A stretch of 64,000 nucleotides of DNA from Cyanidioschyzon merolae (Eukaryota), in NCBI GenBank assembly GCA_000091205.1, contig AP006496.2. One strand, written 5' to 3'. Both the position numbers and the translations under genes were made by a program. Each line of letters begins with the position of its first letter. The first letter of the stretch is position 1. Shown here in pieces: positions 7,251-64,000 of this stretch. Under the pieces are notes generated by a model. The model saw nothing but the letters and a program-made list of their open reading frames with translations, made no database searches and was not told the DNA's origin.

Positions 7251-7308
7251 GCTCGTCACTGTATGCATCCTCAGGAAAATCAACGGGAGCAGGAGCCAGC
7301 CCGCTCGT

Positions 7309-7941
7309 CTATTCGCGTACTTCGATGCAACGACGCGGACGAGGCCGCTCCGGAGGTGCTGGTAAAGGCTCCTGCTCGAGTTCTGGTGCAACCACTATTT
7401 CGTTGGGCTCAGGAACAAGTTCTGCCGGTTGCGATGTTTCCTCTTTCTGTTTGGACTCGTGGCCAAAGCGTTCGCGAAAAAAGCGGACAACATCATCCAT
7501 GCTCTGCCTCAGGTCCTTTCGAAGCGATGACGGGCGTGTATCCTTTGCCCAGGGCACATAGCGACCAAACCCTTGACCAACACCGACACAGCCGAACCCT
7601 ATGCCTACGCCGCAACCCGTGAACGCCCTCGGTGCCTGGATGCCGTAGCGACGCACGCTCTCAAACGACCAACCAAGCGCTAGCAAACAACAGCCGGTGC
7701 CACAGCCGAGAATCGCTACACCGGCCGGAGGCAAAAAAGATGGCAGTTGCACCGCCGCAACTGCAGCGTGCTTCCAAGCGCTCGCACCCGAAAGCCGCCG
7801 CCGTGCACCAGTCCCTGTGCCAAGCGTCCAGCTTGGAGGTGCGTGCGGCTCCACCCAGGTCGACCGAAGCACGCTCGAACCAGCGTCCAACTGGTAGTTC
7901 AAGCTCCTCGCGAAACAGTTAAGTCCACACGCTTGTTCCAT
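7309..7941 (-). CDS. Hypothetical protein with glycine-zipper stretch (GxGxGxG) and acidic C-terminus
   Basis: Uninterrupted 210-aa ORF. 'FTGCGVGIGFGCVGVGQGFG' is a glycine-zipper-like hydrophobic motif, and the C-terminal 'DDVVRFFRERFGHESKQKEE…' looks protein-like. No family recognised, and overlapping plus-strand ORFs exist. Confidence 0.2.
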   Translation of the reverse strand: MEQACGLNCFARSLNYQLDAGSSVLRSTWVEPHAPPSWTLGTGTGARRRLSGASAWKHAAVAAVQLPSFLPPAGVAILGCGTGCCLLALGWSFESVRRYGIQAPRAFTGCGVGIGFGCVGVGQGFGRYVPWAKDTRPSSLRKDLRQSMDDVVRFFRERFGHESKQKEETSQPAELVPEPNEIVVAPELEQEPLPAPPERPRPRRCIEVRE

Positions 7942-10440: not shown

Positions 10441-12167
10441 ATGGTGGCAGGTGTATAGAGTCTAGGATATGGTTTAAGGCGCAATATGGATGACGAAATG
10501 TAACGGATTGTCGCGGCATGAAGAGAAAATTTTAGATGTACGAGTATTCATGAAGCCAAGACTGTACTCATCTGACGAGCCGCTGCAAGCGACACAGTAC
10601 AAGTAACGCTGATCATTTTGACGATAGTGGACATTTTTCTTGTTGTGCATTGTGTACAACCTGGCGCATAAGCAGCGCGCGCTCTCCAGCAGTGGCTCTG
10701 CACCGCGACCGCAACTACCTCGTGTATTACACAATTCCCGCAACAGAGTACGCTCACCATCGACATGATCCGTCTCTAGTTGCGCGCTTACGGCGTTACA
10801 AGTTCCAGCTGGCGGCTATTCTGACACTATCGGGAAGTGCTCTGGTTGCAGACGGAGAACCGGAACCAGCGCGACGAAAGAGCTGCAGTCGAACCGCAAT
10901 TCTCTGATGCAAAGGTTCACAGAATGCTTCGTTCGTGATGCAGCGTGGAGAGAAGCAGTGCGCTCCCTCCATTGCCCCAAGTTCCTTTTCGTGAACTGAC
11001 CCGCAGGCACTACGGGCATCTTCCTGATACCGCCAGTCCGTTTATTGTTGCTGCTCGGGCAACTTGAAGTGCTAGACGGTTTCTGCTAGAAAACCCGCCA
11101 AAAAGCTTGCTATACGGCGTTTACATATGAATCTGCCTAGTAACCCTAGTCGTCCGGCGTTCTCGCTGGCCGAGGAGAACGTTGTCACTTCGGAATGCAG
11201 ATGCTGGCGCGACATCCTCGGCGCGATGCATTGCTGCCCAGAGAGTTCCACAATCGAATTTGTCTGTTTCGTGTCTGCCACAGCATGTGGAATACAAATG
11301 TTTGCCGAACAGAAGATTGAAAGTTCTCCAACAGGTCCGGTCGCTGCAGTGTGCAACGCCTGCGGAGGCGCTCCCGCGTTCGAGGTTATTTATTCAGAGG
11401 GTTTCAGGCACTCACGGTTTAAAAGCATGAACCAGACCCGATCGCACAACGGCTCGTACGATAGCTGTCGCTGTGTCGTCTTCGATACGCCGTGGCGAGG
11501 CACTGGCAAAGCTACCTCTCCATCAGTCCCTGGTGTGGCGCTGAGCTCGTGGCCCCAGGCTCTGAAGGTCTGGGGGCCCTTGGCTTCGCTGCAAGCGCGA
11601 GTTTTCCGTAAACAATGTTCGTAAAACTCTTCCAAAGCCTCACACAGACCACGATTCGATTCGTGCACGCCCATACCGTCAGTGCACCCGGCGTCAGGCG
11701 TGTCGTAAAGGTAACACTGGAGCCCGCTCGTTGCCCTGTTTGGAGGACGCTTGTGTGCTGTGTTGCAACTTGCTCGCCGAGCCACAGTCGTTCGCTAAAC
11801 GCACCAATTACACCATGTTAATCTCAAGTCCGAGTAGAGCACTGTTCGAAACGTCCTCTTTATGCCAGAGTCGAGAATGGCTCTTATTCGCAAACGGTCT
11901 GAAAGAAATAATGCGGCGGGTGTGCGGCGTCGCCCGTGTTCATCGAATATCCTGCATCGAGTTGGTGCTGCCAGGAGGATATTGTCGTGAATATCGATCA
12001 ACATTCATCCAAGACGCATGTACCTCCGGAGGGAAATATGGAGAGTAGTGGTTCGAACTTGAATCTACAGAGCGGTATCATGGATGCTCACGCTGAAACC
12101 GATAACCGTCACAGAATCAGGGCTCCCTGCTTTATGTCAATATTCTTCGACACTACACTGGCGACGG

Positions 12168-13440
12168 CATAAAAATGGAGCACTGAACCGTTCGATCAAT
12201 TGCTGCCTTGCGATTGCATTCTCAGTCTTGCTTTGTAGATGTAGAGCGTTGGCAGTAGATATGCCGCATTGAGCGCTATCAGATGCATTCATTGAATCCG
12301 GGTTCTCGGTCGAGTTTTCCGAGTGGCTCGTTCGACTCCTTGCCGCTGGAAATCGTTATGTGCACGGTACAAGGGGAGTGTCGACGCCCTCGATCTACGC
12401 TTCGTAACGTGAACGGGAGCACTATCCGAATCATACGATGCGGACTCTGCGTTTCAACATTCCTTGCCTGCAGCACGCTCAGATACCGAATTCTTCAAGT
12501 TTTCGATGGTTCTGCTTCAAGGCAGCACGAGGGCGCAGCAGGCATCGCCGCTGGATGGACGACGACGGGGAAAAACTCTACATCAGCTTTGGAGACTTTC
12601 CCAGACGCTCATGCCGAGAGTTCACTGAACCTGTCTCATCAAGCAACAGATTCAGCTCGAAACACATACCCTCCGCTCTTGGTGGCCGTCGACGACATGT
12701 CATTCGGCATCCGACGGCAGCGGCACGGTGCCTCTCAGGGGGTATGCACTCAGGGGCTGGCGGCTCATCTGTTTGCCAGCAAAGGGTCTTGGACTCGCGC
12801 TTGAGTCATCGATGCGATCGCATTTGGCGGTACGACCGCCATCGCTTTCCATGAACGGGGGCGTAGACGGATCGCATTTTCTCGACCTGCTCTCAAGTCT
12901 AGATGTTCGGTCTGGTACTGGTCTCAAGACGTGGAAGAAAGCGTCCCGCAAACCCTGTATCGAGTGGTGCTGCTTGCTCTTGCGCGTGCGGTTCAGAGGG
13001 CATGCGCTGAGGGCATCGCACAGACCAAGCCCGTGCACCTGCGACACAACACCGGGTGCGGAAACGGCGGAGGGCATTTCTGGGTCAGCCTTGTTTATCG
13101 CGCCAAGGGTGTGTAACGGGCGATGACGCCAGCGTCCAAGCGCCACAAAGCGGCTGTCCGTAAGTAGCGCGTCTCGTGGGCGCATGGGAGCGCCCCTGTG
13201 CATTCATTTGTCAACGGTGCGACGTGCGCACCGAGGCTGTATACAGAAGAAAAGAGTATCGTATGCGAAGCGTAGATCGCATGTAGCGTCTGTCGGCTCA
13301 ATGAATAGAACGTAGCGGAAAGCAGGGAATTCGGGCGTTGAACGCTGCCATCAACATCCATCCCTCGACTGCTGAAAACTGATCTTGAAGTAAAGAAGAG
13401 AACGGCTGGAAGCTGTCGCCGAGAAAAAAAAGCCCCCCAA
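12168..13440 (+). mobile_element. Dispersed repeat family 1, copy 2 (~1.27 kb)
   Basis: >99 % identical reverse complement of copy 1, judged from translated ORFs and direct alignment of both ends. No TIRs, no recognisable transposase or RT motif. Overlapping ORFs on both strands suggest a non-coding, non-autonomous element. Confidence 0.85.
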
Positions 13441-14203
13441 TAGCTTGGCCTGATCACAATGGATATCCATCCTCCCTTTATCGTTTACGCCTGTATTAGC
13501 AGAGTCGACTTTTTTGAGTCAATGCTAAGATGAATCTTGTACATGTGCCAGACTTTACAAAGTGCATCTGTTCCATTTCTTGCTGATACGGGCACAACAG
13601 AAACAGCGTCCATGTCCAGCCATTATTCGTAAATTCACCATTGTTCAAGGCTACACACTGTGAAAGTGATGCCAATCAGAGCAATCCACAAGCGCTCGAT
13701 GCTCACATCACTGCACGTCTATACATCTATATTCTGTACAAAGAGCGCCACCCGATCCAGTCCGTTCGGTCTCAGCGTCCGCATCAGCACCCAACACAAT
13801 GCCGCTGGAGCTTCCTGCGAGCTGGATCCGCTCCGTTCACCAGTGCGAAACTGCGTCTAGCATGCACCACTTCTATGTAGTCGCGTGTTATGATGCACGC
13901 GAGCGCTGCGTATGCATCCCGGAATACAAAGCGCGCATCCATGGCCAGCCGCGCACCTAGGAAATCACGAGAGCATCGGTGCCGCATCATCATCATCATC
14001 ATCATCACGAGAACAACAATAACAACAAGTACGAGGCGGGTGCGTTTTCGCCAGCATTTCGAGGTTGTGTCGCCTGTGCTGTGCACTTGGATCGCGCGCT
14101 TGCCTTGCACTCCATGGATAGATGATGACCGATACACCCTTTTGTGCAAGTACTACTCGAATATCGATACCAGGGTGCCTTCTGCGCAGACTCGCGAGCG
14201 TGG

Positions 14204-17125
14204 TCACGAGGAGAACGCAGCTCCGCCAATCTGATCCCCGGTTCGAAGGACCGTCCCTGGCGATGCAATGTCGCCATTCAGCATAGGTACACCAGCGACA
14301 TCACCCAAGGTGGTGCCGCGAGGAAGTCGGAGCAACTTGCCCGAACTCTTATCGAATACGACGACATGCTGTTCCAGTTCAACGATTTGATGATAGAGTA
14401 CGCGAAAGTATTCACTGGTTGTTCCCAACGAAGCTGTGACGGTATCATCGAGAATAACATCCGCTCGACGCGACTCGGAATGCGTCAGTGTTTCCGAGGC
14501 GAGCGTCTCGCCTGAGGGCGGCTGCGTTGCCGGTAACGCTGCGACACGAGCGGGTGTATCCGATGGACCCGCTGCCGTTGTTGCTGCCGTCGGTGTGCTT
14601 ACGGCACCCGAGGCATCCGCCAGTGAGGCTACAGCAGCATCCGAGTCCGCTGCGACGTTGGATTCAAATTCGAACTCACCAACAGAAGGAGCACAGGGCG
14701 TATTGGCTAACGCCGCAGCATGCGCGATAGCGTTCCACGCAACAGCTTTCTCCCGTTCGCTCATGGCAGACGGCGAGACTGTGGTATTCGCAAAGCCCCG
14801 ATCCGTGAACAGATTCAGATTCTGCTTGTAGAGCCAGTGCGCGGCCCTGCCGTACTCCGCCAGCCGATGCATTCGCTCCGAACGCACCTGAACCTCAACC
14901 GGGAAGCCGTCGATAACTACCGTGGTATGCAGACTCTGATACCCGTTCTCCTTGGGCCAACGTATGAAATCGCGTCGCCTTTCGCGCACACTTGGCCAGA
15001 GTCGCTCGATGATGGCCATGACGGCGTCGCATGCCTCCAGCTCGCTGCTCTGATGAACCGGTCGCACAACAACCCGCAACGCCATCAGATCCAGAATGCT
15101 GTCGATGCCGCTCCCGAGACGAATCATCTTCCGGTACGTCGAGTAGAGACTCTTCACACGACCTCTGATGCGCCACGACCAAATGTAACTGTGCAACTGA
15201 GGCTCCAGACTGAGCGCATTTTCGATCGCTTGGCGAGCGTACTCGAGGATATCGGCACCTGCATCAAAGCGCAGTGCAACTTGCCGTCGCAGCGCCTCAC
15301 TCTGTTTTGGAAACAACAGCAAAAACGCCAGCTCCTCCATTTCGCATTGGAGGTAGTAGATGCCGAGCTGATTTGCGAGCGGAGCTACCACTTCCAGCGT
15401 CAAGAGAGCCAATCGCTGGGCAGTCGCATGCGTCATTGCGTCGAGCCGCTGCCTAGCGGGCGCGAGACTCGCCCGCTGGTCATCAGCGCCATCCGTATGG
15501 GATCGCGTCTCGCAAGACGCCTCTCGTGGTGTCAAGAGTCCGGGTGATACGCACGTGGGTGCTTGTTCCGCGGTCTCCTGCATCGAATTCAGTGAGCGAT
15601 CAGCAGGCGTATGCGAAACTGCAGGAGCACCAGAGGCATATGCCCCGGACGCCGTCGACGTACCCCTCACGACAGACGTCGCCACCGACTCGTCCATTGA
15701 CGACGCTGCCTCGCAGCTTCTTTGTGGTGCATTTCCCTCAGCTGCGCACGTATCTGGCGACGATGTTGCAGCGTCCATATCATCCATGAGGCCGAATGCT
15801 TCGCTGTACACGCGCAACTCGTGCAGCGTCCCTGCAAAAAAGAGCGCCAACGCGCGCCAGTCTTTGGCGACACCGATAAGCAGCTGCCGCAGACCTGCGG
15901 GATTCGAATCCATACTCGTCGCGTAGATAATGCCACGTATCGCCCTCTCCTGAATCAGAATATCTGCAACCGACCGGCCGAACTCGCTGGCGATCTCTCG
16001 CGTAGCCAGTGGTGTGTCCAGCAGAGCAGCTGCCAGCACAGCCTCGAGGTCCATCTGCAAGTCGATGACTGTATTCAGAACAGCACGACAGCGAGCGAAG
16101 CTGCGGTGTTTGCGCTCCTCGTGTATGGCGACACCCCAGGGTGTAGTCGACACAGCCGCTATGCGCCGTGCCGCCCTGTCGCTTGTACTTGGCGCGCTAG
16201 CTGCGTCCGGCGACAGGCGTTCGCGTTCCCCTCGCGCGCTTGTGCGCAAGTTCATGTCTGGTGGTGATGGTGGTGCATTCGCTGGGTCTGCCGTACTGCC
16301 TGCATCAGCATCTGGCGGTTGTCGAGCAGGCGAGTGCTGCATCGTAGCGGAACGCTGTAGCGAACGTTCCAGAGCAATGCGCACGAGGGATGAACCGATG
16401 GGTCCCAGGTACGCACAGCGAAGCTCGACATCTTCAATGAAGCGCTGCAAATCCTGTGTGGAGGATGGCCAGCCCGGGCCTTCCGCAACCTCACTGCATC
16501 TTCGCTGCTTTTCCAGGTTCTGGAGCGCCCGGCTAACCTGCGATGAAACCTGAATAAAATCTGAGCTGGAGACGTCTTTCGAGACTCGCTCTGGTGCCCG
16601 CCTGTGCTCGTTACGTCGCTGGCTCAGGGCTCCTGATTCGCGAGCCGCACCAAAGCACTCATACGTTCCATGCCTTGCGGGAGTGGTCGCTAGTCCCTGG
16701 CGGCGGCTGCGGTGCAGAAAAAGGCGCACGCCGACAGGTTTCCCAGTCGCTGACGGAGGCCGCTCCGGAACATCTTGCTGTTCACTGCGGGTGTTTTCAT
16801 CACCCGTGGCCACCTGAGCATCACCAGTCTTGTGTCGCACGTTCCAGACACACTTTGGTGCAGCAGAAGCGCCTTCCTCGCCATAGAACGGAGTTCGCTC
16901 AGGAAGCAGCCCCTGTTCGACCGGATCGATGCCCAGACGAAGAGCGCAGCGCCGCCCTTCGAAGCGGCCGCTACAAAACACCCTCCGTACAGGCGGAACG
17001 CGTAGGAGTGCTCTGTTTGCCGCACATAGTGCCGCCGCGCTCCCAACGAAGCCGTGAACCCGCTCTATTCGCACAGGCTGCAGACTCGGCTCAACGAAGC
17101 AGCTCGATGAGCGCCCAGTTGACAT
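14204..17125 (-). CDS. RelA/SpoT homologue (RSH): (p)ppGpp synthetase domain with degenerate HD hydrolase-like region
   Basis: Synthetase signature 'ILDLMALRVVVRP…YQSLHTTVVIDGFPVEVQVRSERMHRLAEYGRAAHWLYKQ'. Upstream 'RQLLIGVAKDWRALALFFAGTLHELRV' aligns to the HD-domain segment (…LLAMA.D.RVILIKLADRLHNMRT…), but no His-Asp dyad was seen. The ~330-aa N-terminus is low-complexity Ala/Pro/Ser-rich. Confidence 0.8.
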   Translation of the reverse strand: MSTGRSSSCFVEPSLQPVRIERVHGFVGSAAALCAANRALLRVPPVRRVFCSGRFEGRRCALRLGIDPVEQGLLPERTPFYGEEGASAAPKCVWNVRHKTGDAQVATGDENTRSEQQDVPERPPSATGKPVGVRLFLHRSRRQGLATTPARHGTYECFGAARESGALSQRRNEHRRAPERVSKDVSSSDFIQVSSQVSRALQNLEKQRRCSEVAEGPGWPSSTQDLQRFIEDVELRCAYLGPIGSSLVRIALERSLQRSATMQHSPARQPPDADAGSTADPANAPPSPPDMNLRTSARGERERLSPDAASAPSTSDRAARRIAAVSTTPWGVAIHEERKHRSFARCRAVLNTVIDLQMDLEAVLAAALLDTPLATREIASEFGRSVADILIQERAIRGIIYATSMDSNPAGLRQLLIGVAKDWRALALFFAGTLHELRVYSEAFGLMDDMDAATSSPDTCAAEGNAPQRSCEAASSMDESVATSVVRGTSTASGAYASGAPAVSHTPADRSLNSMQETAEQAPTCVSPGLLTPREASCETRSHTDGADDQRASLAPARQRLDAMTHATAQRLALLTLEVVAPLANQLGIYYLQCEMEELAFLLLFPKQSEALRRQVALRFDAGADILEYARQAIENALSLEPQLHSYIWSWRIRGRVKSLYSTYRKMIRLGSGIDSILDLMALRVVVRPVHQSSELEACDAVMAIIERLWPSVRERRRDFIRWPKENGYQSLHTTVVIDGFPVEVQVRSERMHRLAEYGRAAHWLYKQNLNLFTDRGFANTTVSPSAMSEREKAVAWNAIAHAAALANTPCAPSVGEFEFESNVAADSDAAVASLADASGAVSTPTAATTAAGPSDTPARVAALPATQPPSGETLASETLTHSESRRADVILDDTVTASLGTTSEYFRVLYHQIVELEQHVVVFDKSSGKLLRLPRGTTLGDVAGVPMLNGDIASPGTVLRTGDQIGGAAFSS

Positions 17126-31469: not shown

Positions 31470-33212
31470 ATGCCTGTGGTGTCTGCGCAAGAGCGTGATG
31501 TCGTCGAGGCTAGTTCGCGTGAGGCGACGCATTCAGGGTACGTCTTGCGGGCCAGTGGAGAGCTTTCTTCGACCGCCGCTGAGTCGAGTTCCGCTCCGGA
31601 GGTACCTCGAACGCCTTCCGGAGCGGCTGGCTGCACCGCACTGCTTTCTGCTACCTTGACACCTACGGGGTCTCGAAGCAACGACTCGGGTAACGCGGAG
31701 ACCTCGACAAGAAGCGCGCTGGGCACTGCAGTAGGTGTTGTTCGTGTTGCTGGCGCCCCTGCTCGTCCACCTTCTACGACTACGACTGTTACTGCTACTG
31801 CTGCTACTGCCGCTACTGCTGCTACTGCTGCTACTGCTGCTACTGCCGCTACTGCTGCTACTGCCGCTACTGCTGCTACTGCCGCTACTGCTGCTACTGC
31901 CGCTACTGCTGCTACTGCCGCTACTGCTGCTACTGCTGCTACTGCTGCTACTGCTGCGTCATCGCCTCAGCCGAGCACCTCAGGGTCTGGAGGAGCCCCT
32001 GTCACAGAACCGAGTCGCCCGCGCTCGCAGCGTCTCTCGTGGTTCACCATCGCTCGTCGACTCTTATCGCACGGAGGGAAGAAACTCGAACTCGCCAGTT
32101 TCTTGAATGCGCTGCTTTTCCTCGGCCTCTTGACCAACTTGCACCTGACATATGTGAATCGAGCGGGCTGTGCCCCGACCCTATTGGAGCAAATGGCTCA
32201 GTTCCACCCGGAAGCACGACACGATCCGGCTCTGCTCCTGCGCCGCTACGACCTCGTCCAAGTACAAGTAGTGCCGACGCCACTCCCGCTGCAACACTTT
32301 CACAACACCTGGTCTGGCCTGCAGCCACTGTGGGAGCGGTTGTTGCCTCGTCCGCAACGGTACCAGTTCGCTACAGAAAAGGGATTTTTGCTACTAAGTG
32401 AACAGGCCAGACGAAGCCACAACATCTCCGAGTTGCATCTGGAGCTGACGACGAAAGATACGTGCTATGGTGCGTCACCATTCATGCGCGGTATTCTCAA
32501 GTACATTGTCGGTAGTGAAACCGTCGTTCTGAACGCTTTTGCGTATCTGCTGCAGTATGGCCTCCGACACGGCCACAGTAGTGGTCAGCGGTCGCTCGGC
32601 ACGGATGGGTACGTGCTCAACGTGCAGAGCGGTGATATCTATAACATCGGTCGGGTATTTATCGGGGAACTATACGCGCGCTCCGCTTACTTTACCGATG
32701 TCTTTCTGTTGAAAACGGGCGTGTTACTAACGTCAGCATATGTGATGTTCACCATAGGTGCACTGATCGCGTTTGCGTTACGGGAAGTGCAGTCAAGGAT
32801 CATGAAGTTAGCACTGGAGATCCAGAATGCTCGGAATCGCACGCCATATGCCGGAGCGCTGTTTAGCAGTTCGATTCATGCGCTGGTGCTGGTTCCGATT
32901 ATTACAGGTATCCTTTTCTTTCTTTTTGAATTCTTCGATAATCAGCTGCTTGCGTTTTGCGTGCTCGTTGTCGCATGGATTGCGGAGGTGACGGTCATGT
33001 TGGGCTGGCGGAGCGGCCTCTCGATCTACATCCTTCCGCGGGCGTTTGCAGCGTACTTGTTAGCATTTCATATTTACTTTTTCTCGTTTCCCCTGGGTTT
33101 TAGCTGGTTAGCGCTCTTCACCTGTGCCGCGTTCATGCAGCACACTGTTTTTCTGGTTTTCTCTCGGTTCGAGTCACCGCGGCTTCGCGCTGAGGCAACA
33201 ACGCAGCGATGA
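31470..33212 (+). CDS. Hypothetical multi-pass membrane protein with internal (Ala-Ala-Thr)n low-complexity tract
   Basis: 580-aa ORF. The N-terminal half is Ser/Ala/Thr-rich and includes ~20 x AAT encoded by a GCT-ACT-GC[C/T] repeat. The C-terminal ~250 aa contains 5-6 hydrophobic helices ('LLTSAYVMFTIGALIAFAL', 'ALVLVPIITGILFFLFEFF', 'LAFCVLVVAWIAEVTVMLGW', 'AAYLLAFHIYFFSFPLGFSWLALF'). Confidence 0.45.
   Translation: MPVVSAQERDVVEASSREATHSGYVLRASGELSSTAAESSSAPEVPRTPSGAAGCTALLSATLTPTGSRSNDSGNAETSTRSALGTAVGVVRVAGAPARPPSTTTTVTATAATAATAATAATAATAATAATAATAATAATAATAATAATAATAATAATAATAASSPQPSTSGSGGAPVTEPSRPRSQRLSWFTIARRLLSHGGKKLELASFLNALLFLGLLTNLHLTYVNRAGCAPTLLEQMAQFHPEARHDPALLLRRYDLVQVQVVPTPLPLQHFHNTWSGLQPLWERLLPRPQRYQFATEKGFLLLSEQARRSHNISELHLELTTKDTCYGASPFMRGILKYIVGSETVVLNAFAYLLQYGLRHGHSSGQRSLGTDGYVLNVQSGDIYNIGRVFIGELYARSAYFTDVFLLKTGVLLTSAYVMFTIGALIAFALREVQSRIMKLALEIQNARNRTPYAGALFSSSIHALVLVPIITGILFFLFEFFDNQLLAFCVLVVAWIAEVTVMLGWRSGLSIYILPRAFAAYLLAFHIYFFSFPLGFSWLALFTCAAFMQHTVFLVFSRFESPRLRAEATTQR
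31782..31955. repeat. Imperfect 9-bp (GCTGCTACT / GCCGCTACT)n coding microsatellite, ~19 units
   Basis: Direct reading 'gctactgctgctactgccgctactgct…'. Translates as (AAT)n in the CDS frame, poly-Leu in another, and (SSS/GSS)n on the reverse strand. Confidence 0.9.
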
Positions 33213-40451: not shown

Positions 40452-41858
40452 TGTGTAGCAAGCGAACAAAGTCACTATGGAATGTACCCTGTAGATCGTA
40501 GAAGAATTGCCTGGAGGATATATTCTTTACTGAAAAGTTCAAGGAAGACTGCATCTCTCCTTCAGGTTAGTCATACCACGGTACTTAGATGGTTGAGGAA
40601 CGCTGAAAGGAAGAAGTACAAGCGCTCTGCACCTAAAACCGATATTCTCAAAGCGCGCTTGCGGGAAATGGTAGAAAACGACCCCTCGTTTACGTTACGG
40701 AAAGCAAAAGCGACGATAGAGGCCGCCACGGGCATCTCTGTTTCTCAACAGCTTGTTCGTGTGGTCCTGAAATCACTGGGATACCGTCGCAGAAAAGTCC
40801 AGCTTCACGCACGACCAACATCCACTGAAATCGCAACGACAGCGTTCATGGAGAGTCGCTATCGATATGAAGCCGAGTGACGCTGGTGTGTTTTTTCTGT
40901 CGATGAGACTTGCTTCGGGTGAAACGGGCGGTGCGTATATGGGTATTCGCGGAGCAGGGCGCTCATTGTACGTCTGTTGAAGCTCGAAGAGAGCGATGAT
41001 ATCCTCATCGGATTTATCTGGAGTGGGCCCGGGTGGCAGAATCACGTTCGCTCCTAGAGAAGGCGCACACAACAGCACCGACCTGGTCGATTCACTGGTG
41101 ACCTCTCCCTGACGTCTGGCGACGTGCTTCCAATGGACAATGTTGCATGTTACCATTCCCTTTGCGTTAGGGCTTTTGCCGATGATATCGGGGTCGAGTT
41201 GCTTTTCATTACTCCGTACGGTGCGTGATTCAACCTCAGCAAGGGAGTGTTTTTTATCATGCAACGTAATGATTGCTGCACTGGAGGAATCGCAGAAGCG
41301 TTCTGCACACAGCGACAAACCGGGAGCACAGGTCAGCTTTCTTGCGCAAACCCCGGTCTTCTTCGGGAACATCTCAACCTAGCGGCATAAAAAATGCATT
41401 CATTTTGAAGAAATAAGGGAATCCACGTGAAAGTAATGGACATGAAAGTCGGGGATACACGAGGGCCGTCATCGCCAGCCGCCTGGAAGAGAAACGGAAA
41501 AATCCTCTTCTCACCGAACATCGAGCGAAGAAGCGCAAGCGACGAAGAAGAAGGAGAAGGAGAAGAGGGGAGATCGTCGAGAAAACGTATTTGCCCAGCG
41601 GGACGAAGACGAGACTGTCGAAGCACAGCAGGCGCGAGCTCTACACAACCCTTGCAACGGTGAGTTCCACCAGCGGCAACAAATCGCAAAGAGTTCGTAA
41701 ACCGATCCTTCAACATCTCCATGAATACCAGACGATGTGCAGTGCTGTCGACCAGACCCGCAGAGCTGACGCGTTCCATCTTTGTAGTGTAGCCTCTGAA
41801 GCTCGAAGTATTCAAGGAGAAACTGAAGCCGATGCCAAGAGGCCCGTCGAAAAAAGAC
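40452..41858 (+). mobile_element. Tc1/mariner/IS630-superfamily-like transposon remnant, family 2 copy B (~1.41 kb, inverted relative to copy A)
   Basis: Reverse-complement match to 28484..29893 across all ORFs (199-aa ORF has 2 substitutions; the transposase-HTH ORF is identical over the shared part). Confidence 0.8.
40482..40880 (+). pseudogene. Truncated Tc1/mariner/IS630-type transposase HTH domain (copy B)
   Basis: Same 'YSLLKSSRKTASLLQVSHTTVLRWLRN…' sequence as 29468..29950. No DDE core follows. Confidence 0.6.
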
Positions 41859-42022: not shown

Positions 42023-43693
42023 ATGAGCGAACACTATCGAAACAGTCTGCGTTGGTGCATAGGACTACACCGAAGTTTGTTGTCGTGGCCGCAGAAACGG
42101 CCAGGTTGCCAACGCACTGGGTTGCGGTCTCCAGTGACCGGGACGCACAAAGCACCGGTTACTGCTCACTGGAAAACGCGGGATCATGAACGTGCCGTAA
42201 AGCATACTGCGTCTTTGTGGGCCGGCGGACAAAAACGGTTTCCCTGGCGCGGAGACTTTGACGTCTTGGCTCCATGCGTGCCGCTACTTCGTTTTCCCAG
42301 TTCGAAACGACAGCTTGTAGCGAGTAGACACGACGAGGCTGGAAGCGAGCACGCCCCTGCGGACCAGCACAAGTGCGAGCACATCGCCACCGTATCGTTG
42401 GAAGGAGCGCTTGCAAAAGACCCTGTCTCCACGGGCGTCTATGCCGCAGTGCAGGACCCGGAGCGCTCCACCAGCACAGAGCATACGCAGCGTGCTCCCG
42501 CGTCACCGAGCGGCACGTCGCGGAAACGACCACGGAATATGACACCATATCGACCGGTGCGCTCAGAAGTGGACTACCGAGCACTCGTCGACGACGAGCT
42601 ACCCCGTATCGTCAAGGGGCTCGGTCTTGGGCCGACGGCAGTGCTCGCGCTGGATCCGCAACATCCTGGACCGACTGAACAAGCCAAAAATGCATACCTT
42701 TCGTGGCTAACCGCTGGGTATCACGGCAGTATGGAGTACATGGCCCGGACGGATCGCATACGGCGGGCTTTGAACTACGAACAAATCCTGCCTGGTGTTC
42801 GAGCGATCGTTGTAACGACACTGTTCTACTGGCCGGGCAAGTCGGGGTTCACCGCACCCGCAGACGCCGCAACACCGAACCGAGGCACCGTCTCCTGCTA
42901 CGCGTGGGGTCAGGACTACCACCGCACGCTGGGGCAAAAGCTGAAGCAGCTCGCAGAGGAGATTCATGCATACGCAGGAGGTCAGGGGCGCTACTACGTG
43001 GACACCGGTGCTTTGCTGGAACGACATATCGGCGAAAGTGCTGGCCTGGGTTTTGTGGGAAAAAATAGTCTGCTCATTCATCCGCAGCTCGGAAGTGGCT
43101 TCTTTCTTGGGGAGGTCCTAACGACGCTGCCGCTTCCGAGCAAACGGCCGGATCTCTCTGGACGCGGTGGCTGCGGACGTTGTCGAAAATGTCGGACGGC
43201 TTGTCCAACTGGAGCGATTGTCGAAGACCGAGTTGTCGATGCTCGACGATGCATCTCTTACTTGACGATTGAACTGAAAGATGCGATTCCGGAAGAATAC
43301 CGCGAAGCGATCGGCTCCCTCATCTACGGCTGCGATATCTGCCAACAGGTATGTCCCTGGAATCAATTCGACTGGGAGGGATCACCTACGAGCCCGCTTT
43401 TCGGTGAGGTACCCCAGGATGTCCGCGAACCGGATCTCTTGGCGTTACTGGACCTGAACGAGGTTTCTTTTCAAGAACGATTCAGGGATTCACCGATACG
43501 GCGGATCGGCCTTGAGCGCCTCCAGCGGAACGTGCTTGTAGCGCTGGGTAATGTGGGGAATCCGCACCAGTCAAGAGCTCGTCTCGTTCGATTTCTTGAG
43601 GAGAATGAAAGCGAATTACTGCGAGAACATGCCCGTTGGGCGCTTGATCGCATTGAACGGCGAGAAAAAGCTGCTGCGCCTTTTGCAGGTTGA
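42023..43693 (+). CDS. queG: Epoxyqueuosine reductase QueG-like (tRNA queuosine biosynthesis), with ~180-aa N-terminal extension
   Basis: Ferredoxin-type 4Fe-4S motifs 'CGRCRKCRTACPTGAI' and 'CDICQQVCPWN'. The QueG-typical 'ISYLTIELKDAIPEEYREAIGSLIYG' and the C-terminal HEAT-like tail 'LQRNVLVALGNVGNP…LREHARWALDRI'. N-terminal part of the domain 'AYLSWLTAGYHGSMEYMARTDRIRRALNYEQILPGVRAIVV'. Confidence 0.75.
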   Translation: MSEHYRNSLRWCIGLHRSLLSWPQKRPGCQRTGLRSPVTGTHKAPVTAHWKTRDHERAVKHTASLWAGGQKRFPWRGDFDVLAPCVPLLRFPSSKRQLVASRHDEAGSEHAPADQHKCEHIATVSLEGALAKDPVSTGVYAAVQDPERSTSTEHTQRAPASPSGTSRKRPRNMTPYRPVRSEVDYRALVDDELPRIVKGLGLGPTAVLALDPQHPGPTEQAKNAYLSWLTAGYHGSMEYMARTDRIRRALNYEQILPGVRAIVVTTLFYWPGKSGFTAPADAATPNRGTVSCYAWGQDYHRTLGQKLKQLAEEIHAYAGGQGRYYVDTGALLERHIGESAGLGFVGKNSLLIHPQLGSGFFLGEVLTTLPLPSKRPDLSGRGGCGRCRKCRTACPTGAIVEDRVVDARRCISYLTIELKDAIPEEYREAIGSLIYGCDICQQVCPWNQFDWEGSPTSPLFGEVPQDVREPDLLALLDLNEVSFQERFRDSPIRRIGLERLQRNVLVALGNVGNPHQSRARLVRFLEENESELLREHARWALDRIERREKAAAPFAG

Positions 43694-59295: not shown

Positions 59296-61785
59296 GTTCT
59301 ATACGTCAACTGATGGCGAATGCGTCTCGCGGAGCTCGCGTTTCGTCGATCGAGAAGCGCATCGATGCGATTCTCGATCAATAGAGCTGGTGCTTTCCGC
59401 TGCTGACGCTGCCGCCTTTTTTTGGATAGGCGTGGTGTGCTTTGGCATTTGTGAGCTTGGCAACCTGGTGTGCCACTGGCGCTTGCGACAGGCCCCATAC
59501 GGCTTGGTTTTCGAGCTTGTGTCGTGTCCGAACGACACACATTTGAGGTACTGGTGTGGGCAGGATGTACATTGATGACGCAGATAATCGCAGGCATCCG
59601 GTTTATGCTCGTGGGCATTGCGCAGCTGATGGTCTGGGTTCGGGCGAAGCATCGGCAGTCTCTGAAGGAATTTGGAACCCTCTATCCCTGGATGAAGAAA
59701 CGCATGCTTCCTTTCGTTTGGTGAATGCGCAGCGGGTCACGAAATTTGTGTGCGTGCTGATGGGCAAGCCCTGACTTGGAGGTACGAGGCCGGTGCGCTT
59801 GTGACTTTTCGTCACTTTTGGATGATGGTGGATTCGGTGATCGTTGGAAACCGTGTAGTGAAGTGCACCCATACTCGTGATGGTGCTCGATAGTCGAGCA
59901 ACCAAAGTGCACTCGGATATTTTTCCCAGAATACCGTGGCGGCGACTAGACATCACCCTGAATATGAACGTTTAGGGTACGCGCTTGTTTTACGTACGTA
60001 TTAGGAAACCGTAGCATGCTGTGCGGCTTCGTTGCGCACTATTCACGGCCAGCATGCCGTCACCAGAGCACCTGGTGCCGGCTGCAGCCTCCAGCTTCTG
60101 GTACCGATCGTTTGATAGCGCCAGTCAAGATGGATCGTTTCTTGACCTCAGCTCTATCACTAGCGTTTTCGACAAAACGTCATCAATATCAGAAGACGAC
60201 TGGTGATGGAGGCGCGACCGGCGGAGCTGACGCGGTCCACCTTTCTGGGACATCCTCTCAGGGTCGAATTGTACAAAGAGAAGCTGCAACCGATAGCAGG
60301 GGGCCGGTCGAAAAAGGCTAGGAGACGTCTGTGATTGGATATTAATTTACCCTAAATGGTCGTGAAACGTTTTCTTTCCATTGAACGGTAAGGGATAGAG
60401 AAAAAATCCGTCTCTCGAGCAGTTTTACTACTGGAAGGGAAAAATCAGCAGGTGGCTAACGAACATCCGCGTGCTTAAGGAATGGCGGGTGGCGTAGGGG
60501 GTGCAGATAAGTTTACGGTTTGGTGCTTGCACAACTACATACAAGTTAGGCTCTTGAAACTAATCTTATAGAGTAGATAAGAATACAGTATGTGCTTTTG
60601 TCGGGTGCCTCGATCGTGCCAGGCGAGATGCGTCGGCCGAACGTCGTGGCAGATATGGACGCTACCTGTGTGCTATGCCTCTGTCAAGATCACCGGGTCC
60701 GAGACAGTAGCAGGCACCATAACTTGGGCAATGACGATAGCATGGAAATGACTTGAACGGTCATCAGTACCAGCCCATGACGCCGGAAAGAAGCAAAATT
60801 CATGTCAGTTCCTTATTCCAGCGTCCGTGCAGCATGCATAACAAGCATAGAGAATAAACTTACATCCGTGTTCGGGAACACTACCGTATTTAGTTTGGTT
60901 ACGATCAATACAACTAACGAAACTCTTCAAGGCTAGTGTGATGCATACCTCATCCACACAAGCGTAAGCCGCAGAGAACGCTACGCTTTTGATAGAAGCG
61001 TCGAGAGGTATCGTGCCAGGCCCCAACAGCTCCATGTATGTCAGGGCGGTACTGCGATGGGCAGTAGCGTCGGCACCAGCGACATAGCCTATAGCAAGAG
61101 ACTACTCTACGTGAGTTTTCGATTTAGGACACCTGATTTTTGCTGCTGCGCGATGCGAACACGCAAGTGCCAAGGCGGGGTGTCGGACACGTGTCCTTCA
61201 TCGATCGGTGAGGCGTCTCGCGCGGTGCACGCATCGCGCTCGGTGAGCGCATCTGGGAGATCAGGCAGACATGAGACACGACATGTATGTCGCCGTTGAA
61301 GGGAAATGCGATCGCGATCTTTAGCGTGTTGCTCTCAAGTTGTATTTGCGTTAAAGTCATAGCAGAGTATACTTTTCAGGTCAATTATGTTTCAACCCTC
61401 AGTTTAGTTTATTCAAGTGATTTTTCGCGGTTTATATCAGAGGCGTTGATGGAGCGTTCTTTTTCAAAAAAACAAAAAAGGAAAGCTATGAAAAAGCAAG
61501 TCGGCGATCCTGGAGGCCCAGGGTCGCCGGCTGTCAGAAAAAAAAAACAAAAACAGTGCCGATTCCAGAAGAAAAGCAAGAGAAAAAGAAGCAAAAGGGG
61601 AGGCCTTACGTCGAAGGCGGCAAAAAAGACAACTGTACGACGAGATGGTGGTTAAAGGCTGTCTTCTTAAACAAATCAAGGATCCCCACAGGGAAACGTT
61701 GCGATACGCTATCGAAAAACGTGTCGACTCGTACTCGAAGAGTATTGTCAAGGCGTCGTCAGGACTGATGCATTTGTCGAGGTAG

Positions 61786-62460
61786 ATGTATCGCGAAGTG
61801 GCGCACATGGAAACGGTCGAGATTCCGGACGAGTTTTTCGACAAGACCTCTATTCGTCAGCTGATGCTTGGTACAGGGGAAGCGCGGAGGGAAACTCAGA
61901 TAGTGCATGCCCTCCACGAAAGCTTCGCGGAATTCCGCTTCGAAGGTAATCGATACAAGGGTGACTCGACTATTTACATATACGGGGCGGTGAAGTACCT
62001 CACGAACCTGAGGAACCATATGACGATGGACCTCGAACATTTTATGATACGCGCCGTGTTCGCTCTCGACCCGCGCATCTCTCGCAAAGGTGCACAGGCG
62101 ATGATCAATGGCATCACGAAAGATCGCAAGCGTGAAGATGAGGTCGAATTTGTAGACAAGAAGGCGTCAAAAGAGCGCATGAATGAAGCTTCTGTAATCC
62201 GTGCGGCTATCCAAGAGCATCGTGCGGTACTGGGGTTTGTTAATCCAACAGAAAAGATATCAGAGTTGAAAAAAGACAAGGAAAGATACTATCGCCTCGT
62301 CCTGCGATATTTCGTGTTTCTGGACCGAGAGCTCGAACGCAAAGCGGAGATGAAGCTGAGTGAGGAGAGAATTAAAAAAGAGTGGGAGAGACGGGCGGCT
62401 TCGCTCATGGGAAGCGCTTCTACGCGGTTCCAATGTGCAACATCAAGTCACATTTTGTGA
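61786..62460 (+). CDS. Hypothetical 224-aa ORF directly upstream of the Fanzor/TnpB-like RuvC core (possible N-terminal exon/domain of the same gene)
   Basis: Lys/Glu-rich helical ORF ('…[44 protein letters not shown]…'). Preceded at 61409..61768 by Lys/Arg-rich NLS-like coding potential in other frames. Linkage to the downstream RuvC segments is inferred from adjacency only. Confidence 0.3.
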
Positions 62461-62606
62461 CGATCGACTCCAGCATCCTCTATGGCATCATGAGACAGAT
62501 CAGTGGGGAGTTCGATGTTAGCAACGGGAAGTTCATCGGTGAAAACCGGGAGATGCACTAGAAGAATATCTTCGAGTTCAAACTTCTCAAAGCGGGCAAG
62601 CAAAAG

Positions 62607-63713
62607 TTGTTCACTGGGATGATCGAAACCGATGGAGTAGCCTTGTGTGTACACGATCCGCGGTTGACGAAAGATCGTTCAGTGCCGCCCTCGGCTTCGC
62701 CCGTGGCGAAGGATGCAGAAAACAAAGCGGCGGATCCTGCGACGCAGCAGGTAGAGGATAACGACCTTGTCGTTGGTACGGCGAAGCATGAAGATGAGAA
62801 GGAGGCGGGTCTTGAGACGCAGAAAGTGCAGGATAACGACTTTGTCGTTGGCGCGGCGAAGCATAAAGATGAGAAGGAGGCGGGTCTTGAAACGCAGAAA
62901 GTGCAGGATAACGACTTTGTCGTTGGCGCGGACCTCGGGAACACGAATATCGTAACCATCGCAGCATCCACGCCTGGGGAAGATGATACTGACGGTGACT
63001 TACGTCAGAGAGACACGCGACTTTTGAGATTCCCGACAACGAGATGCTATCGAGAATCCGGTATAACGAATGCAAGGAAGAGAATCGAGATATGGAATGC
63101 AGGAGTGAAAGAGCACCTCGAAGCTTTGAGCGAGGTAACGAGCCGCGGAGCGGACTTTCGAGCTTTTCGGGAATTCCCGCAAGTTCGTGTTGCTCATTGG
63201 GATGCGCTGTAGAGGAGTATACAAAGCCTCGGTGGGCTCGTTTGCGAATGAACTTGCACTGTGGGAAGCAGCGTGCATTCGCGAATTTTTTCAATGAGTT
63301 GCGTGCCCTGAAGGAGGATGAAAGTCAGAGGCCCGTAGTAGCGTCTTGGGCAGGGCGATGGAAGACCCAAACAGGGACTACTCCAGCTCCAACGACGAGG
63401 GTATGCAAGGAGTGTGCACGGCGTTTCGTTACAATACCGATAGATGAGTTTCGAGCATCGTATACACACCACGAGCTGGGTTGTACACTTCAGAGGGTCG
63501 AGATGGAAACGTGTCAGCGGCGCCCTGAGGATACAAAAAGTACGGACCGCTGACGGAAGAGCAAATGGAAAGGAGGGCGACAGTTCGTGGACTCCTTGCA
63601 CTAGCGCTTTCTGCAAACAACGGCAAGAAACGTATCGAATCGTGAACGGAGACTTTAACGCCGCTATCAATATAAGGAAATGTACGGTGATGGAAAGAAG
63701 ACCTCCAGAGTAG
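62607..63713 (+). pseudogene. Fanzor/TnpB-like RuvC-nuclease core (eukaryotic OMEGA-type RNA-guided endonuclease homologue), read through three frames (62607..63212, 63044..63553, 63444..63713): frameshifted or intron-containing
   Basis: The RuvC-I motif 'DFVVGADLGNTNIVTIAAS' matches the TnpB consensus 'vGiDlGi.n.a'. Upstream, '[13 protein letters not shown]' is β-strand-like. The middle frame 'WAGRWKTQTGTTPAPTTRVCKECARRFVTIPIDEFRASYTHHELGC' matches 'GDW…G..P……V..VDEy.TSq.C'. The final frame 'WTPCTSAFCKQRQETYRIVNGDFNAAINIRK' is a C-x4-C zinc finger plus the RuvC-III hallmark '[DR]D.NAA.NI'. Confidence 0.55.
62748..62930. repeat. 72-bp (24-aa) tandem repeat, ~2.5 units, inserted immediately upstream of the RuvC-I motif
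   Basis: 'cagaaagtgcaggataacgac[c/t]ttgtcgttgg[tac/cgc]ggcgaagcat[g/a]aagatgagaaggaggcgggtcttga[g/a]acg' repeats. Translated it gives 'QKVQDNDFVVGAAKH[KE]DEKEAGLET' x3, and the last unit ends in the genuine 'DFVVGADLG' motif. Confidence 0.85.
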
Positions 63714-64000
63714 ACGAGTGAGAACTTTGGGGACAACCTCTCAGCGTGGGACTATATGAGAAAAAGCTGGAAGCAGTAGTGAGTGGCCGCCCCCAAAAAA
63801 CCGGGAGGCACCTGCACGACAGTTGGAGGCTTCTTGTCTAGGGCGGGCTTCGCGCCACTACTGTACAAGGTCGGCATCGTTTTTCTTTTGAAAGACGTTT
63901 GTTTCCAGGGGTGGCTCCTAGTATATTGCTTCGCGCTGCCGCAGGCACTAGTCCTGTATGCGCAATTTCAGGCTCCCAGAATGATAAGGAATCCCGATTC

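What the first reader, a model, noticed from the sequence alone, without database searches (positions are those of the whole stretch)
42023..43693. Bacterial-type epoxyqueuosine reductase (QueG) homologue encoded as a nuclear-style gene with a 180-aa N-terminal extension
QueG performs the last step of de novo queuosine biosynthesis in bacteria. Most eukaryotes instead salvage queuine and lack QueG. This ORF has both 4Fe-4S motifs, the QueG-specific segment and the HEAT-like tail. It sits between eukaryotic-looking neighbours and carries a Ser/Arg/Pro-rich N-terminal extension that could be an organellar transit peptide. This suggests plastid or mitochondrial tRNA-Q maturation, or an HGT-derived gene.
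Basis: partly seen in the sequence, partly recalled or inferred. Interest (0 to 1): 0.5.

Follow-up and report, generated by a model that had tools for sequence, protein, structure and literature searches.

The report
Organelle-targeted queuosine reductase of Cyanidioschyzon

Summary
ORF 42023-43693(+) encodes a 556-aa protein identical to C. merolae 10D BAM81214.1, vaguely annotated "similar to iron-sulfur cluster-binding protein". Residues about 173-551 are a full QueG. It scores 332 bits on NCBIfam TIGR00276 (cutoff 200), has all eight Fe-S cysteines, the DYH motif, the catalytic Asp327 and Arg334, and folds like solved QueG (TM 0.8). It is not a reductive dehalogenase (44 bits; cutoff 160).

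It is not contamination. Its neighbours are eukaryotic genes and the locus is syntenic in Cyanidiococcus. dN/dS is at most 0.06-0.12 across three Cyanidiales.

The N-terminal extension is translated. The four codons before Met173 (R-P-R-N) differ among three species only at third positions, and the upstream frame is open in all three. The extension is a basic amphipathic helix followed by about 140 disordered residues, which fits a targeting peptide. Mitochondrion is likelier than plastid, but this is undecided.

A 2025 paper already describes mitochondrial BL-TGT/QueA/QueG in Chloropicon and red algae. The closest prokaryotic QueGs are from Myxococcota and Chloroflexota.

One point appears unremarked: C. 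merolae is listed as lacking B12-dependent enzymes, yet QueG needs cobalamin.

The parts
42023..43693 (+). Complete CDS of the QueG precursor (556 aa plus stop). Identical to BAM81214.1 / XP_005537250.1 / UniProt M1V955 of C. merolae 10D.
42023..42538 (+). N-terminal extension, aa 1-172. No Pfam domain. Predicted helix at aa 2-18, net charge +6 over the first 40 aa, and aa 16-159 predicted disordered. Putative organelle-targeting peptide plus linker.
   Evidence: The open frame of 214 codons upstream of M173 was matched by 3 of 20000 shuffles.
42527..42538 (+). Codons for R169-P170-R171-N172, directly upstream of M173. They are conserved as amino acids in C. merolae, Cyanidiococcus and Cyanidium-like L002, and every nucleotide difference falls at a third codon position. 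This is the evidence that translation starts upstream of M173.
   Evidence: Synonymous sites between these species are saturated, pS about 0.73.
42539..43690 (+). QueG catalytic body, aa 173-556. AlphaFold pLDDT is above 90 from about aa 171 to 551.
42776..43006 (+). QueG_DUF1730 (cobalamin-binding core), aa 252-328. Contains D298-Y299-H300 (42914-42922) and the catalytic Asp327 (43001-43003). Arg334, the lower-face cobalamin cap, lies just downstream at 43022-43024.
   Evidence: Residue roles are taken from PMC4646009 and PMC5175355.
43172..43363 (+). Double 4Fe-4S ferredoxin domain (Fer4_16), aa 384-447. Cys 384, 387, 390, 394, 410, 437, 440 and 444 are invariant in 145 homologues.
43496..43675 (+). 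C-terminal HEAT-like helical repeat (tRNA-binding domain of QueG). Predicted helices at aa 492-511, 514-527 and 531-551.
   Evidence: (weak HEAT_2 hit), and 58 (whole-chain superposition on 5d08/5d6s, TM 0.8).

Best explanation
The gene encodes a nuclear-encoded, organelle-imported epoxyqueuosine reductase (QueG) of Cyanidioschyzon merolae.

Targeting. The precursor is translated from ATG 42023. Its basic amphipathic N-terminus directs import into an organelle. I rate mitochondrion as most likely, as predicted for the Galdieria and Chloropicon orthologues. Plastid is the main alternative.

Mechanism. The mature enzyme (from about aa 165-173 onward) binds two [4Fe-4S] clusters and base-off cobalamin. 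It reduces epoxyqueuosine-34 to queuosine-34 on organellar tRNA-Asp, -Asn, -His and -Tyr. Cob(I)alamin attacks the epoxide. Asp327 acts as general acid with Tyr299 and His300, and Arg334 shields the lower face of the corrin.

Pathway. It would act after a bacterial-like TGT and QueA on a salvaged precursor such as preQ1.

Shown here: identity as QueG, conservation of all catalytic and cofactor-binding residues, purifying selection, nuclear location, and translation of the extension.

Inferred: the compartment, cobalamin use, presence of the partner enzymes in this species, and the source of the precursor.
For: Identity as QueG:
- TIGR00276 equivalog scores 332 bits against a cutoff of 200.
- The PDB QueG entries 5d6s and 5d08 match at E 3e-49 and 5e-46.
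- The AlphaFold model has pLDDT above 90 for aa 171-551. It superposes on QueG structures at Foldseek E 1e-24 to 1e-26 and TM 0.77-0.82. PceA reaches only E 1e-6 and TM about 0.36.
- D298/Y299/H300, D327, R334 and all 8 Cys are conserved, as in experimentally characterised E. coli and Bacillus QueG (roles).

A maintained nuclear gene:
- The exact protein is in C. merolae 10D.
- Neighbours are eukaryotic.
- Synteny of Sec1, Membralin, QueG, BK channel and SDR in Cyanidiococcus.
- dN/dS is 0.06-0.12 with saturated dS.

The extension is translated:
- The R-P-R-N codons vary only at wobble positions in 3 species.
- The upstream frame is open for 214, 151 and 57 codons.
- The Cyanidium caldarium GenBank model (446 aa) includes its extension.

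Targeting-like features: net +6, one acidic residue, hydrophobic moment 0.50 for aa 2-19, AlphaFold helix at 2-18 followed by a disordered stretch.

Literature:
- A chlamydial-type TGT is putatively mitochondrial in red algae (PMC2376095).
Against: - No targeting predictor was available. The crude features cannot separate a mitochondrial presequence from a red-algal plastid transit peptide, and 172 aa is very long for a presequence.
- Codon usage of the extension is only intermediate. Its log-likelihood ratio is -0.011 per codon, against 0.126+-0.039 for coding windows and -0.136+-0.082 for intergenic windows.
- Apart from the last 5-6 residues, the extension is not alignable between species (z about 0.6).
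- QueA, bacterial-type TGT and a preQ1 transporter were not shown for C. merolae itself.
- C. merolae is grown in vitamin-free mineral medium and is reported to lack other B12-dependent enzymes. Cofactor and substrate supply are therefore unexplained.
Confidence: 0.75

Rival explanations
1. Same enzyme, but imported into the plastid, where it matures queuosine on plastid-encoded GUN tRNAs. The extension would be a red-algal transit peptide.
For: The extension is long, hydroxylated and Ala/Pro-rich and largely disordered, as transit peptides are. The Cyanidiococcus upstream Met gives 'MAFSR...', reminiscent of the N-terminal Phe of red-algal transit peptides (the motif is from my own knowledge). 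The N-terminal 182 codons of the RSH gene in this window (14204-17125) also score low on codon usage (0.016 per codon), close to the extension; I assume it is plastid-targeted, which was not tested.
Against: C. merolae itself has no Phe in the first 70 residues and has Glu at position 3. The published predictions for Galdieria and Chloropicon QueG, QueA and BL-TGT are mitochondrial, and the red-algal BL-TGT was also called mitochondrial in 2008. I saw no cyanobacterial affinity for the QueG domain.
Confidence: 0.25
2. Translation starts at Met173 (42539), as in the database models of the Cyanidiococcus (419 aa) and metagenome (391 aa) orthologues. This would give an untargeted, cytosolic QueG, and the upstream open frame would be fortuitous 5' UTR.
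For: Two orthologue gene models start at that Met. The extension has weak coding statistics and no alignable sequence.
Against: R-P-R-N upstream of that Met is conserved with only third-position changes, although neutral sites are saturated (pS 0.73). The frame is open for 214 codons (3 of 20000 shuffles) and for 151 codons in Cyanidiococcus (48 of 20000). AlphaFold confidence rises to 66 for aa 161-170, ahead of Met173, and exceeds 90 from 171. The cytosol has no oQ-tRNA substrate, because eukaryotic TGT inserts queuine directly.
Confidence: 0.07
3. The protein is a QueG-derived enzyme that no longer makes queuosine in this alga. It could be a relic, or it could have been recruited for another reductive reaction, since the cell supposedly has neither B12 nor a queuosine precursor.
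For: C. merolae is listed among algae lacking METH/MTRR, RNR-II and MCM and is said possibly not to need B12 pathways. Partner genes were not verified here.
Against: Every catalytic, corrin-capping and cluster-binding residue is intact, and dN/dS is at most 0.12 over three genera. The score is far above the equivalog cutoff. The same gene is kept in Galdieria, Porphyridium, Rhodosorus, Chondrus, Pyropia and prasinophytes, with QueA and BL-TGT reported alongside.
Confidence: 0.08
4. A bacterial contaminant or recent assembly artefact inside a eukaryotic scaffold.
For: The domain is of bacterial type and the best prokaryotic matches are about 50% identical.
Against: GC content matches its surroundings (0.576 against 0.52-0.58). 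The flanks are Sec1 and BK-channel genes. The arrangement recurs in independent metagenome contigs and in the Cyanidiococcus genome. The closest relatives are other red algae at 76% and 60% identity.
Confidence: 0.01

Closest known systems
Bacterial epoxyqueuosine reductase QueG (B. subtilis 5D08/5D0B, S. thermophilus 5D6S, E. coli YjeS)
   Same: Same three-part architecture: cobalamin-binding core, double 4Fe-4S ferredoxin domain, and HEAT-like tRNA-binding tail. The DYH motif, catalytic Asp, Arg cap and 8 Cys are identical. TM 0.8 to the solved structures. About 41% identity to E. coli and 34% to Bacillus.
   Different: Encoded in a eukaryotic nucleus. It carries a translated N-terminal extension of about 172 aa, absent from bacterial enzymes, and a conserved basic R-x-P-R-N patch just before the fold.
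Nuclear-encoded, predicted mitochondrial QueG of Chloropicon primus/roscoffensis and Galdieria sulphuraria, part of a BL-TGT/QueA/QueG(/YhhQ) route (PMC12301720, 2025)
   Same: Same clade in my NJ tree: all labelled algal QueGs group together with Myxococcota at 74% bootstrap. About 50% identity (Galdieria 50%, Chloropicon 51-52%). All have N-terminal extensions.
   Different: C. merolae is not named in that paper. Its extension is much longer (172 aa against about 30-80). Partner genes and a preQ1 transporter were not checked for this species. That paper does not discuss the cobalamin requirement (0 occurrences of 'cobalamin').
Reductive dehalogenases (RdhA/PceA, NpRdhA)
   Same: Shared class III cobalamin plus 2x[4Fe-4S] redox chain and a conserved active-site Tyr.
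   Different: TIGR02486 scores only 44 bits against a cutoff of 160. Foldseek E 1e-6 and TM about 0.36. No HEAT tail in RdhA. The QueG-specific DYH/Asp constellation is present here.
QueH (DUF208), the non-orthologous cobalamin-independent epoxyqueuosine reductase
   Same: Same reaction, oQ to Q (from my own knowledge: Zallot et al. 2017).
   Different: Unrelated fold and cofactors. The window protein shows no QueH signature. An organism without B12 would be expected to use QueH, which makes the choice of QueG here notable.

Membership tests
QueG (tRNA epoxyqueuosine(34) reductase, TIGR00276 / PF08331+PF13484) | Full-length match to the equivalog HMM above its curated cutoff | tested here: met
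   332 bits against a cutoff of 200, model positions 20-336 of 337. PF08331 63 bits and PF13484 81 bits, both above cutoff.
QueG (tRNA epoxyqueuosine(34) reductase, TIGR00276 / PF08331+PF13484) | Eight Cys ligands for two [4Fe-4S] clusters | tested here: met
   C384, C387, C390, C394, C410, C437, C440 and C444 are invariant in 145 aligned homologues. Their roles are described in PMC4646009.
QueG (tRNA epoxyqueuosine(34) reductase, TIGR00276 / PF08331+PF13484) | Active-site D-Y-H motif, catalytic Asp (Bs Asp134 / St Asp130) and Arg capping the lower corrin face (Bs Arg141) | tested here: met
   D298-Y299-H300, D327 and R334 are present.
QueG (tRNA epoxyqueuosine(34) reductase, TIGR00276 / PF08331+PF13484) | C-terminal HEAT-like helical tRNA-binding domain and overall QueG fold | tested here: met
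   AlphaFold helices at 492-551 with pLDDT above 95. Whole-chain Foldseek TM 0.77-0.82 to 5d08, 5d0a and 5d6s. The Pfam HEAT_2 hit is only 16.9 bits, below cutoff.
QueG (tRNA epoxyqueuosine(34) reductase, TIGR00276 / PF08331+PF13484) | Binds cobalamin and reduces oQ-tRNA to Q-tRNA | not testable with these tools
   Only inferred from residue conservation. Needs biochemistry or nucleoside LC-MS.
QueG (tRNA epoxyqueuosine(34) reductase, TIGR00276 / PF08331+PF13484) | Co-occurrence with QueA and a preQ1-inserting TGT, the source of the oQ substrate | not tested
   No C. merolae proteome or genome search was possible with the tools. The literature reports BL-TGT, QueA and QueG in some red algae and a chlamydial-type TGT in red algae. 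Neither is in this window.
Algal organellar bacterial-type queuosine route (PMC12301720) | Nuclear-encoded, groups with red-algal and Chloropicon QueG | tested here: met
   Exact match to a C. merolae 10D nuclear protein. NJ clade of all 15 labelled algal sequences plus Myxococcota at 74% bootstrap, with Cm+Cyanidiococcus+Cyanidium at 100%.
Algal organellar bacterial-type queuosine route (PMC12301720) | N-terminal mitochondrial targeting peptide | tested here: inconclusive
   The extension is translated, basic and amphipathic at its tip, then disordered. No trained predictor was available and a plastid transit peptide is not excluded.
Reductive dehalogenase (TIGR02486) | Match above the family cutoff, RdhA-type active site | tested here: not met
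   44.4 bits against a cutoff of 160.35, covering the ferredoxin region only. Foldseek TM about 0.36.

The most novel reading that the evidence does not exclude
C. merolae, Galdieria sulphuraria and Porphyridium are tabulated as algae 'lacking identifiable B12-associated metabolism' (PMC11439496). All three nevertheless keep a cobalamin-dependent enzyme, QueG, and in the Cyanidiales it is under strong purifying selection. If it is active, these algae must take up a corrinoid and a 7-deazaguanine precursor from hot-spring bacteria and deliver both into an organelle. Algal B12-dependence surveys that score only METH, MCM and RNR-II would then miss a fourth B12 enzyme. In vitamin-free laboratory medium the organellar tRNAs would be expected to carry G34, or oQ if only the precursor is present.
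Probability: 0.45. Interest if true: 0.5.

Novelty: new member of a known kind. Interest (0 to 1): 0.3.

Why it matters
It gives a precise function to a vaguely named gene in a model red alga ("similar to iron-sulfur cluster-binding protein"). It also corrects N-terminally truncated models of its orthologues.

It extends the recently described bacterial-type organellar queuosine route to the Cyanidioschyzon, Cyanidiococcus and Cyanidium lineage.

Its wider value is as a test case. C. merolae is transformable and grows in defined mineral medium. It has one plastid and one mitochondrion (my own knowledge). Import of the enzyme, and the dependence of organellar tRNA queuosine on external preQ1 and vitamin B12, could therefore be tested cleanly. 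The result bears on how 'B12-independent' algae are defined.

Tried and rejected
1. Polymorphism test of the extension. Four metagenome strains differ from the window at only 4 codons, so the test is uninformative.
2. Codon-usage log-likelihood of the extension. The value is intermediate between coding and intergenic, so not decisive.
3. Protein-level similarity of the three extensions. Not above shuffled controls except for the last residues.
4. Pfam scan of the extension alone. No domain found.
5. Search for a cyanobacterial or alphaproteobacterial origin.
   - The genome-contig scan stopped at 600 candidates. Its best 80 were Chloroflexota, Gemmatimonadota, Acidobacteriota and Myxococcota, with no cyanobacteria.
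   - The plasmid collection gave E. coli, Sinorhizobium, Bacillus, Neochlamydia and Parabacteroides as outgroups, but no cyanobacterium.
   - The plastid-origin question is therefore answered only indirectly: no named cyanobacterial protein appears among the top 120 of 7757 hits.
6. Partner genes (QueA, bacterial TGT, YhhQ, QueC/D/E/F) in C. merolae. They could not be searched, because the protein searches list only the best hits to the query and no algal seed sequence was available. None lies in this window.
7. Literature search for the accession numbers. No paper cites them.
8. The reductive-dehalogenase and contamination readings were rejected.
9. My NJ tree has weak internal nodes (14-25%). 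I do not claim monophyly of the eukaryotic sequences or a specific donor.
Full report
**The observation.** The window has an ATG-initiated ORF at 42023-43693 (+) of 556 codons.
- Pfam finds QueG_DUF1730 (aa 252-328) and the double-cluster Fer4_16 domain (aa 384-447) above their cutoffs. There is a weak HEAT_2 hit at the C-terminus.
- The NCBIfam equivalog model for QueG, TIGR00276, scores 332 bits against a cutoff of 200 and covers almost the whole model. The reductive-dehalogenase model reaches 44 bits against a cutoff of 160.
- The two solved QueG sequences match at E 3e-49 and 5e-46. Dehalogenases match only over the ferredoxin part, at about 1e-6.
- An AlphaFold model built on 45 homologues is confident (pLDDT above 90) from about residue 171 to 551. 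It superposes on B. subtilis and S. thermophilus QueG at TM 0.77-0.82 and E 1e-24 to 1e-26. PceA gives TM about 0.36.

**Active site.** The structural papers name the following as functionally important:
- the D-Y-H motif;
- the catalytic Asp (Bs Asp134 / St Asp130);
- the Arg that caps the lower face of base-off cobalamin (Bs Arg141);
- eight cluster-ligating Cys (PMC5175355 and PMC4646009).

In the window protein these are D298-Y299-H300, D327, R334 and C384/387/390/394/410/437/440/444. In a 145-sequence alignment Y299, H300, D327 and all eight Cys are invariant. D298 is Asp in 144 of 145 sequences and R334 is Arg in 140 of 145. The window protein has the same residues as E. coli QueG, including Ile416 where Firmicutes have Gln.

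**Whose gene it is.** The exact 556-aa sequence is BAM81214.1 / XP_005537250.1 / UniProt M1V955. It is named [quoted passage not shown] and lies on an 852,727-bp record.
- The window's GC content (0.50-0.58) is uniform across the gene.
- The flanking long ORFs are eukaryotic: Sec1 family, Slo/BK potassium channel, Membralin, GOST, PFK2/FBPase2, trehalase, a mitochondrial carrier and a RelA/SpoT homologue.
- The Cyanidiococcus yangmingshanensis genome has the same neighbourhood: Sec1, Membralin, QueG, BK channel, SDR.
- Several hot-spring metagenome contigs repeat the QueG-BK arrangement at about 99% identity.
- Between C. merolae, Cyanidiococcus and a Cyanidium-like contig, synonymous sites are saturated (pS about 0.73) while pN is 0.15-0.28. 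That gives dN/dS of at most 0.06-0.12.

This is a long-resident nuclear gene under purifying selection, not contamination.

**Is the extension real?** There is no Met between M1 and M173. The Cyanidiococcus GenBank model (419 aa) and the metagenome call for the Cyanidium-like orthologue (391 aa) both start at the equivalent of M173. The alternative start therefore had to be tested.

Three tests were weak:
- too few polymorphisms;
- intermediate codon usage, -0.011 per codon against 0.126+-0.039 for coding and -0.136+-0.082 for intergenic windows;
- no alignable similarity between the extensions.

Two tests were informative.
1. The frame upstream of M173 is open for 214 codons in C. merolae (3 of 20000 shuffles), 151 in Cyanidiococcus (48 of 20000) and 57 in the Cyanidium-like contig. 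Each has an upstream ATG.
2. The four codons immediately before M173 read CGA CCA CGG AAT, CGC CCT CGA AAC and CGG CCG CGG AAC in the three species. All encode R-P-R-N, and every difference is at a third position. Neutral sites are saturated between these species. This conserved-conserved-variable periodicity therefore means the region is translated in this frame.

The only in-frame ATG upstream in C. merolae is 42023, so the 556-aa model stands. The Cyanidium caldarium GenBank model (446 aa) also includes its extension. The 419-aa Cyanidiococcus model is probably truncated.

**What the extension looks like.**
- The first 40 residues carry 7 basic residues and 1 acidic residue.
- Residues 2-19 have a helical hydrophobic moment of 0.50.
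- AlphaFold predicts a helix at 2-18, followed by a low-confidence stretch (pLDDT below 50) from 16 to 159.
- No domain is detected.
- Orthologues in Galdieria, Porphyridium, Chloropicon and unnamed marine sequences also have basic, non-homologous N-terminal extensions.

This is what a targeting peptide plus linker looks like. I could not run a trained predictor. The features do not separate a mitochondrial presequence from a red-algal plastid transit peptide, and 172 residues is unusually long.

**Comparison with what is known.** A 2025 paper on Chloropicon genomes (PMC12301720) reports the following.
- Nuclear genes for a bacterial-like TGT, QueA, QueG and sometimes the preQ0/preQ1 transporter YhhQ are all predicted to be mitochondrial.
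- Their closest relatives are red-algal.

An earlier study had already found a chlamydial-type TGT, putatively mitochondrial, in red algae (PMC2376095).

The window gene is the C. merolae member of this set. It is not named in those papers, and no paper in the library cites its accessions. On that basis I favour the mitochondrion, with the plastid as the main alternative.

**Origin.**
- The best hits after Cyanidiococcus (76%) and Cyanidium (60%) are other red algae and prasinophytes at about 45-57%.
- Next come Myxococcota and Anaerolineae/Chloroflexota at about 48-54%.
- A scan of one genome per prokaryotic species was capped at 600 candidates. Its best 80 were Chloroflexota, Gemmatimonadota, Acidobacteriota and Myxococcota at 37-50%.
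- E. coli is 41% identical, Sinorhizobium 38-39%, Bacillus 34% and Neochlamydia 33%.
- In a neighbour-joining tree (145 sequences, 303 columns, 200 bootstraps), all 15 labelled algal QueGs fall in one clade with a nested Myxococcota group (74% support). Chloroflexota are sister to it. The proteobacterial, chlamydial, Bacteroidota and Firmicutes sequences lie outside.
- Internal nodes are weak.

No cyanobacterial sequence could be obtained. A plastid-endosymbiont origin is therefore only indirectly disfavoured, by the absence of a named cyanobacterial protein among the top 120 hits. Unlike the partner TGT, QueG does not look chlamydial. It does not look alphaproteobacterial either.

**Mechanism, and what is inferred.** By homology, the mature enzyme accepts electrons through two low-potential [4Fe-4S] clusters. 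It reduces base-off cobalamin to cob(I), which attacks the epoxide of oQ34. Asp327, relayed by His300 and Tyr299, protonates the leaving oxygen to give the cyclopentenediol of Q.
- Because eukaryotic TGT inserts queuine directly, a QueG only makes sense where a preQ1-inserting TGT and QueA make oQ-tRNA. That points to an organelle.
- The presence of those partners in C. merolae, the electron donor, the precursor source and the cofactor supply are all inferred, not shown.

**A point I did not find in the literature.** The survey of algal B12 use lists C. merolae 10D, Galdieria sulphuraria and Porphyridium among the few algae "lacking identifiable B12-associated metabolism". It bases this on METH/MTRR, MCM and RNR-II, and it never mentions queuosine (PMC11439496). 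Another paper suggests C. merolae may not need B12 pathways at all (PMC3594237). All three taxa have QueG, and the Chloropicon paper does not mention cobalamin. There are two possibilities:
- these algae do use a corrinoid, for one organellar tRNA modification; or
- the pathway stalls at oQ, or at unmodified G, when B12 or the precursor is missing, as in vitamin-free culture.

This is testable in C. merolae and is the most novel reading that the evidence leaves open.

**Verdict.** The gene is a new member of a kind described in 2025, in a well-studied genome where it is already modelled at full length but poorly named. Interest is modest. It is raised slightly by the cobalamin paradox and by the clean evidence that the long extension is translated.

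Noticed in passing
window 40482-40880 (+): A 132-aa ORF between Sec1 and QueG matches the Tc1/mariner-type transposase HTH domain (PF01498 HTH_Tnp_Tc3_2, 31.6 bits, just at cutoff). No catalytic domain follows, so it is probably a transposon remnant. The Cyanidiococcus locus has a different 306-aa gene in this interval.
   Followed up: partly
L001:5557-7260 (Cyanidiococcus, GCA_026122185.1 JANCYV010000008.1): The GenBank model CCYA_CCYA08G2429 (419 aa, starts at L001:6001) is probably N-terminally truncated. The frame is open for 151 codons upstream, with a Met at 5557 (MAFSRCRTTSS...), and R-R-R-P-R-N precedes the annotated Met. The same holds for the 391-aa metagenome call P0003, compared with the 446-aa Cyanidium caldarium model P0135.
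   Followed up: yes
window 42521-42538; proteins P0014, P0004: A basic patch R-(K/R)-(R/x)-P-(R/K)-N lies just before the QueG fold. It recurs in Rhodosorus (GRPKN) and Pyramimonas (RKPKN) but not in bacterial QueG. It could be a processing site (Arg at -2 of N|M) or an added tRNA contact. Its function is unknown.
   Followed up: partly
NJ tree (P0019, P0031, P0037, P0052 and neighbours): Myxococcota QueGs nest inside the algal QueG clade rather than outside it. This could mean a myxobacterial donor, transfer from a eukaryote to Myxococcota, or an NJ artefact. Support for internal nodes is low.
   Followed up: partly
protein cluster of P0009 (member P0139): A cluster of 474-497-aa QueGs has long N-terminal extensions and falls in the algal clade. 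One member is labelled 'MAG: Promethearchaeia archaeon'. This is possibly a eukaryotic (algal) contig mis-binned into an Asgard MAG.
   Followed up: no
window 14204-17125 (-): A 973-aa RelA/SpoT homologue (HD_4 plus RelA_SpoT domains), a nuclear-encoded (p)ppGpp enzyme. The codon usage of its N-terminal 182 codons is as atypical as that of the QueG extension (0.016 per codon).
   Followed up: no
window 1-14000: No ORF of 250 aa or more in the first 14 kb, in contrast to the rest of the window. There are tandem repeats at 4481-4593 (GCATTG x19), 4731-5067 (112 bp x3) and 7027-7231 (111 bp x1.8).
   Followed up: no
window 60000-64000: Lower GC (0.50-0.51) with strong positive GC and AT skew (up to 0.16 and 0.15). 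There is a 75-bp tandem repeat at 62729-62931 and several overlapping 120-230-aa ORFs on both strands with no significant Pfam hit. This may be a degraded repeat or mobile-element region.
   Followed up: partly
window 31785-31957: A 9-bp repeat (CTGCTACTG x18) lies inside the Membralin-like ORF 31470-33212, which implies a low-complexity coding repeat.
   Followed up: no
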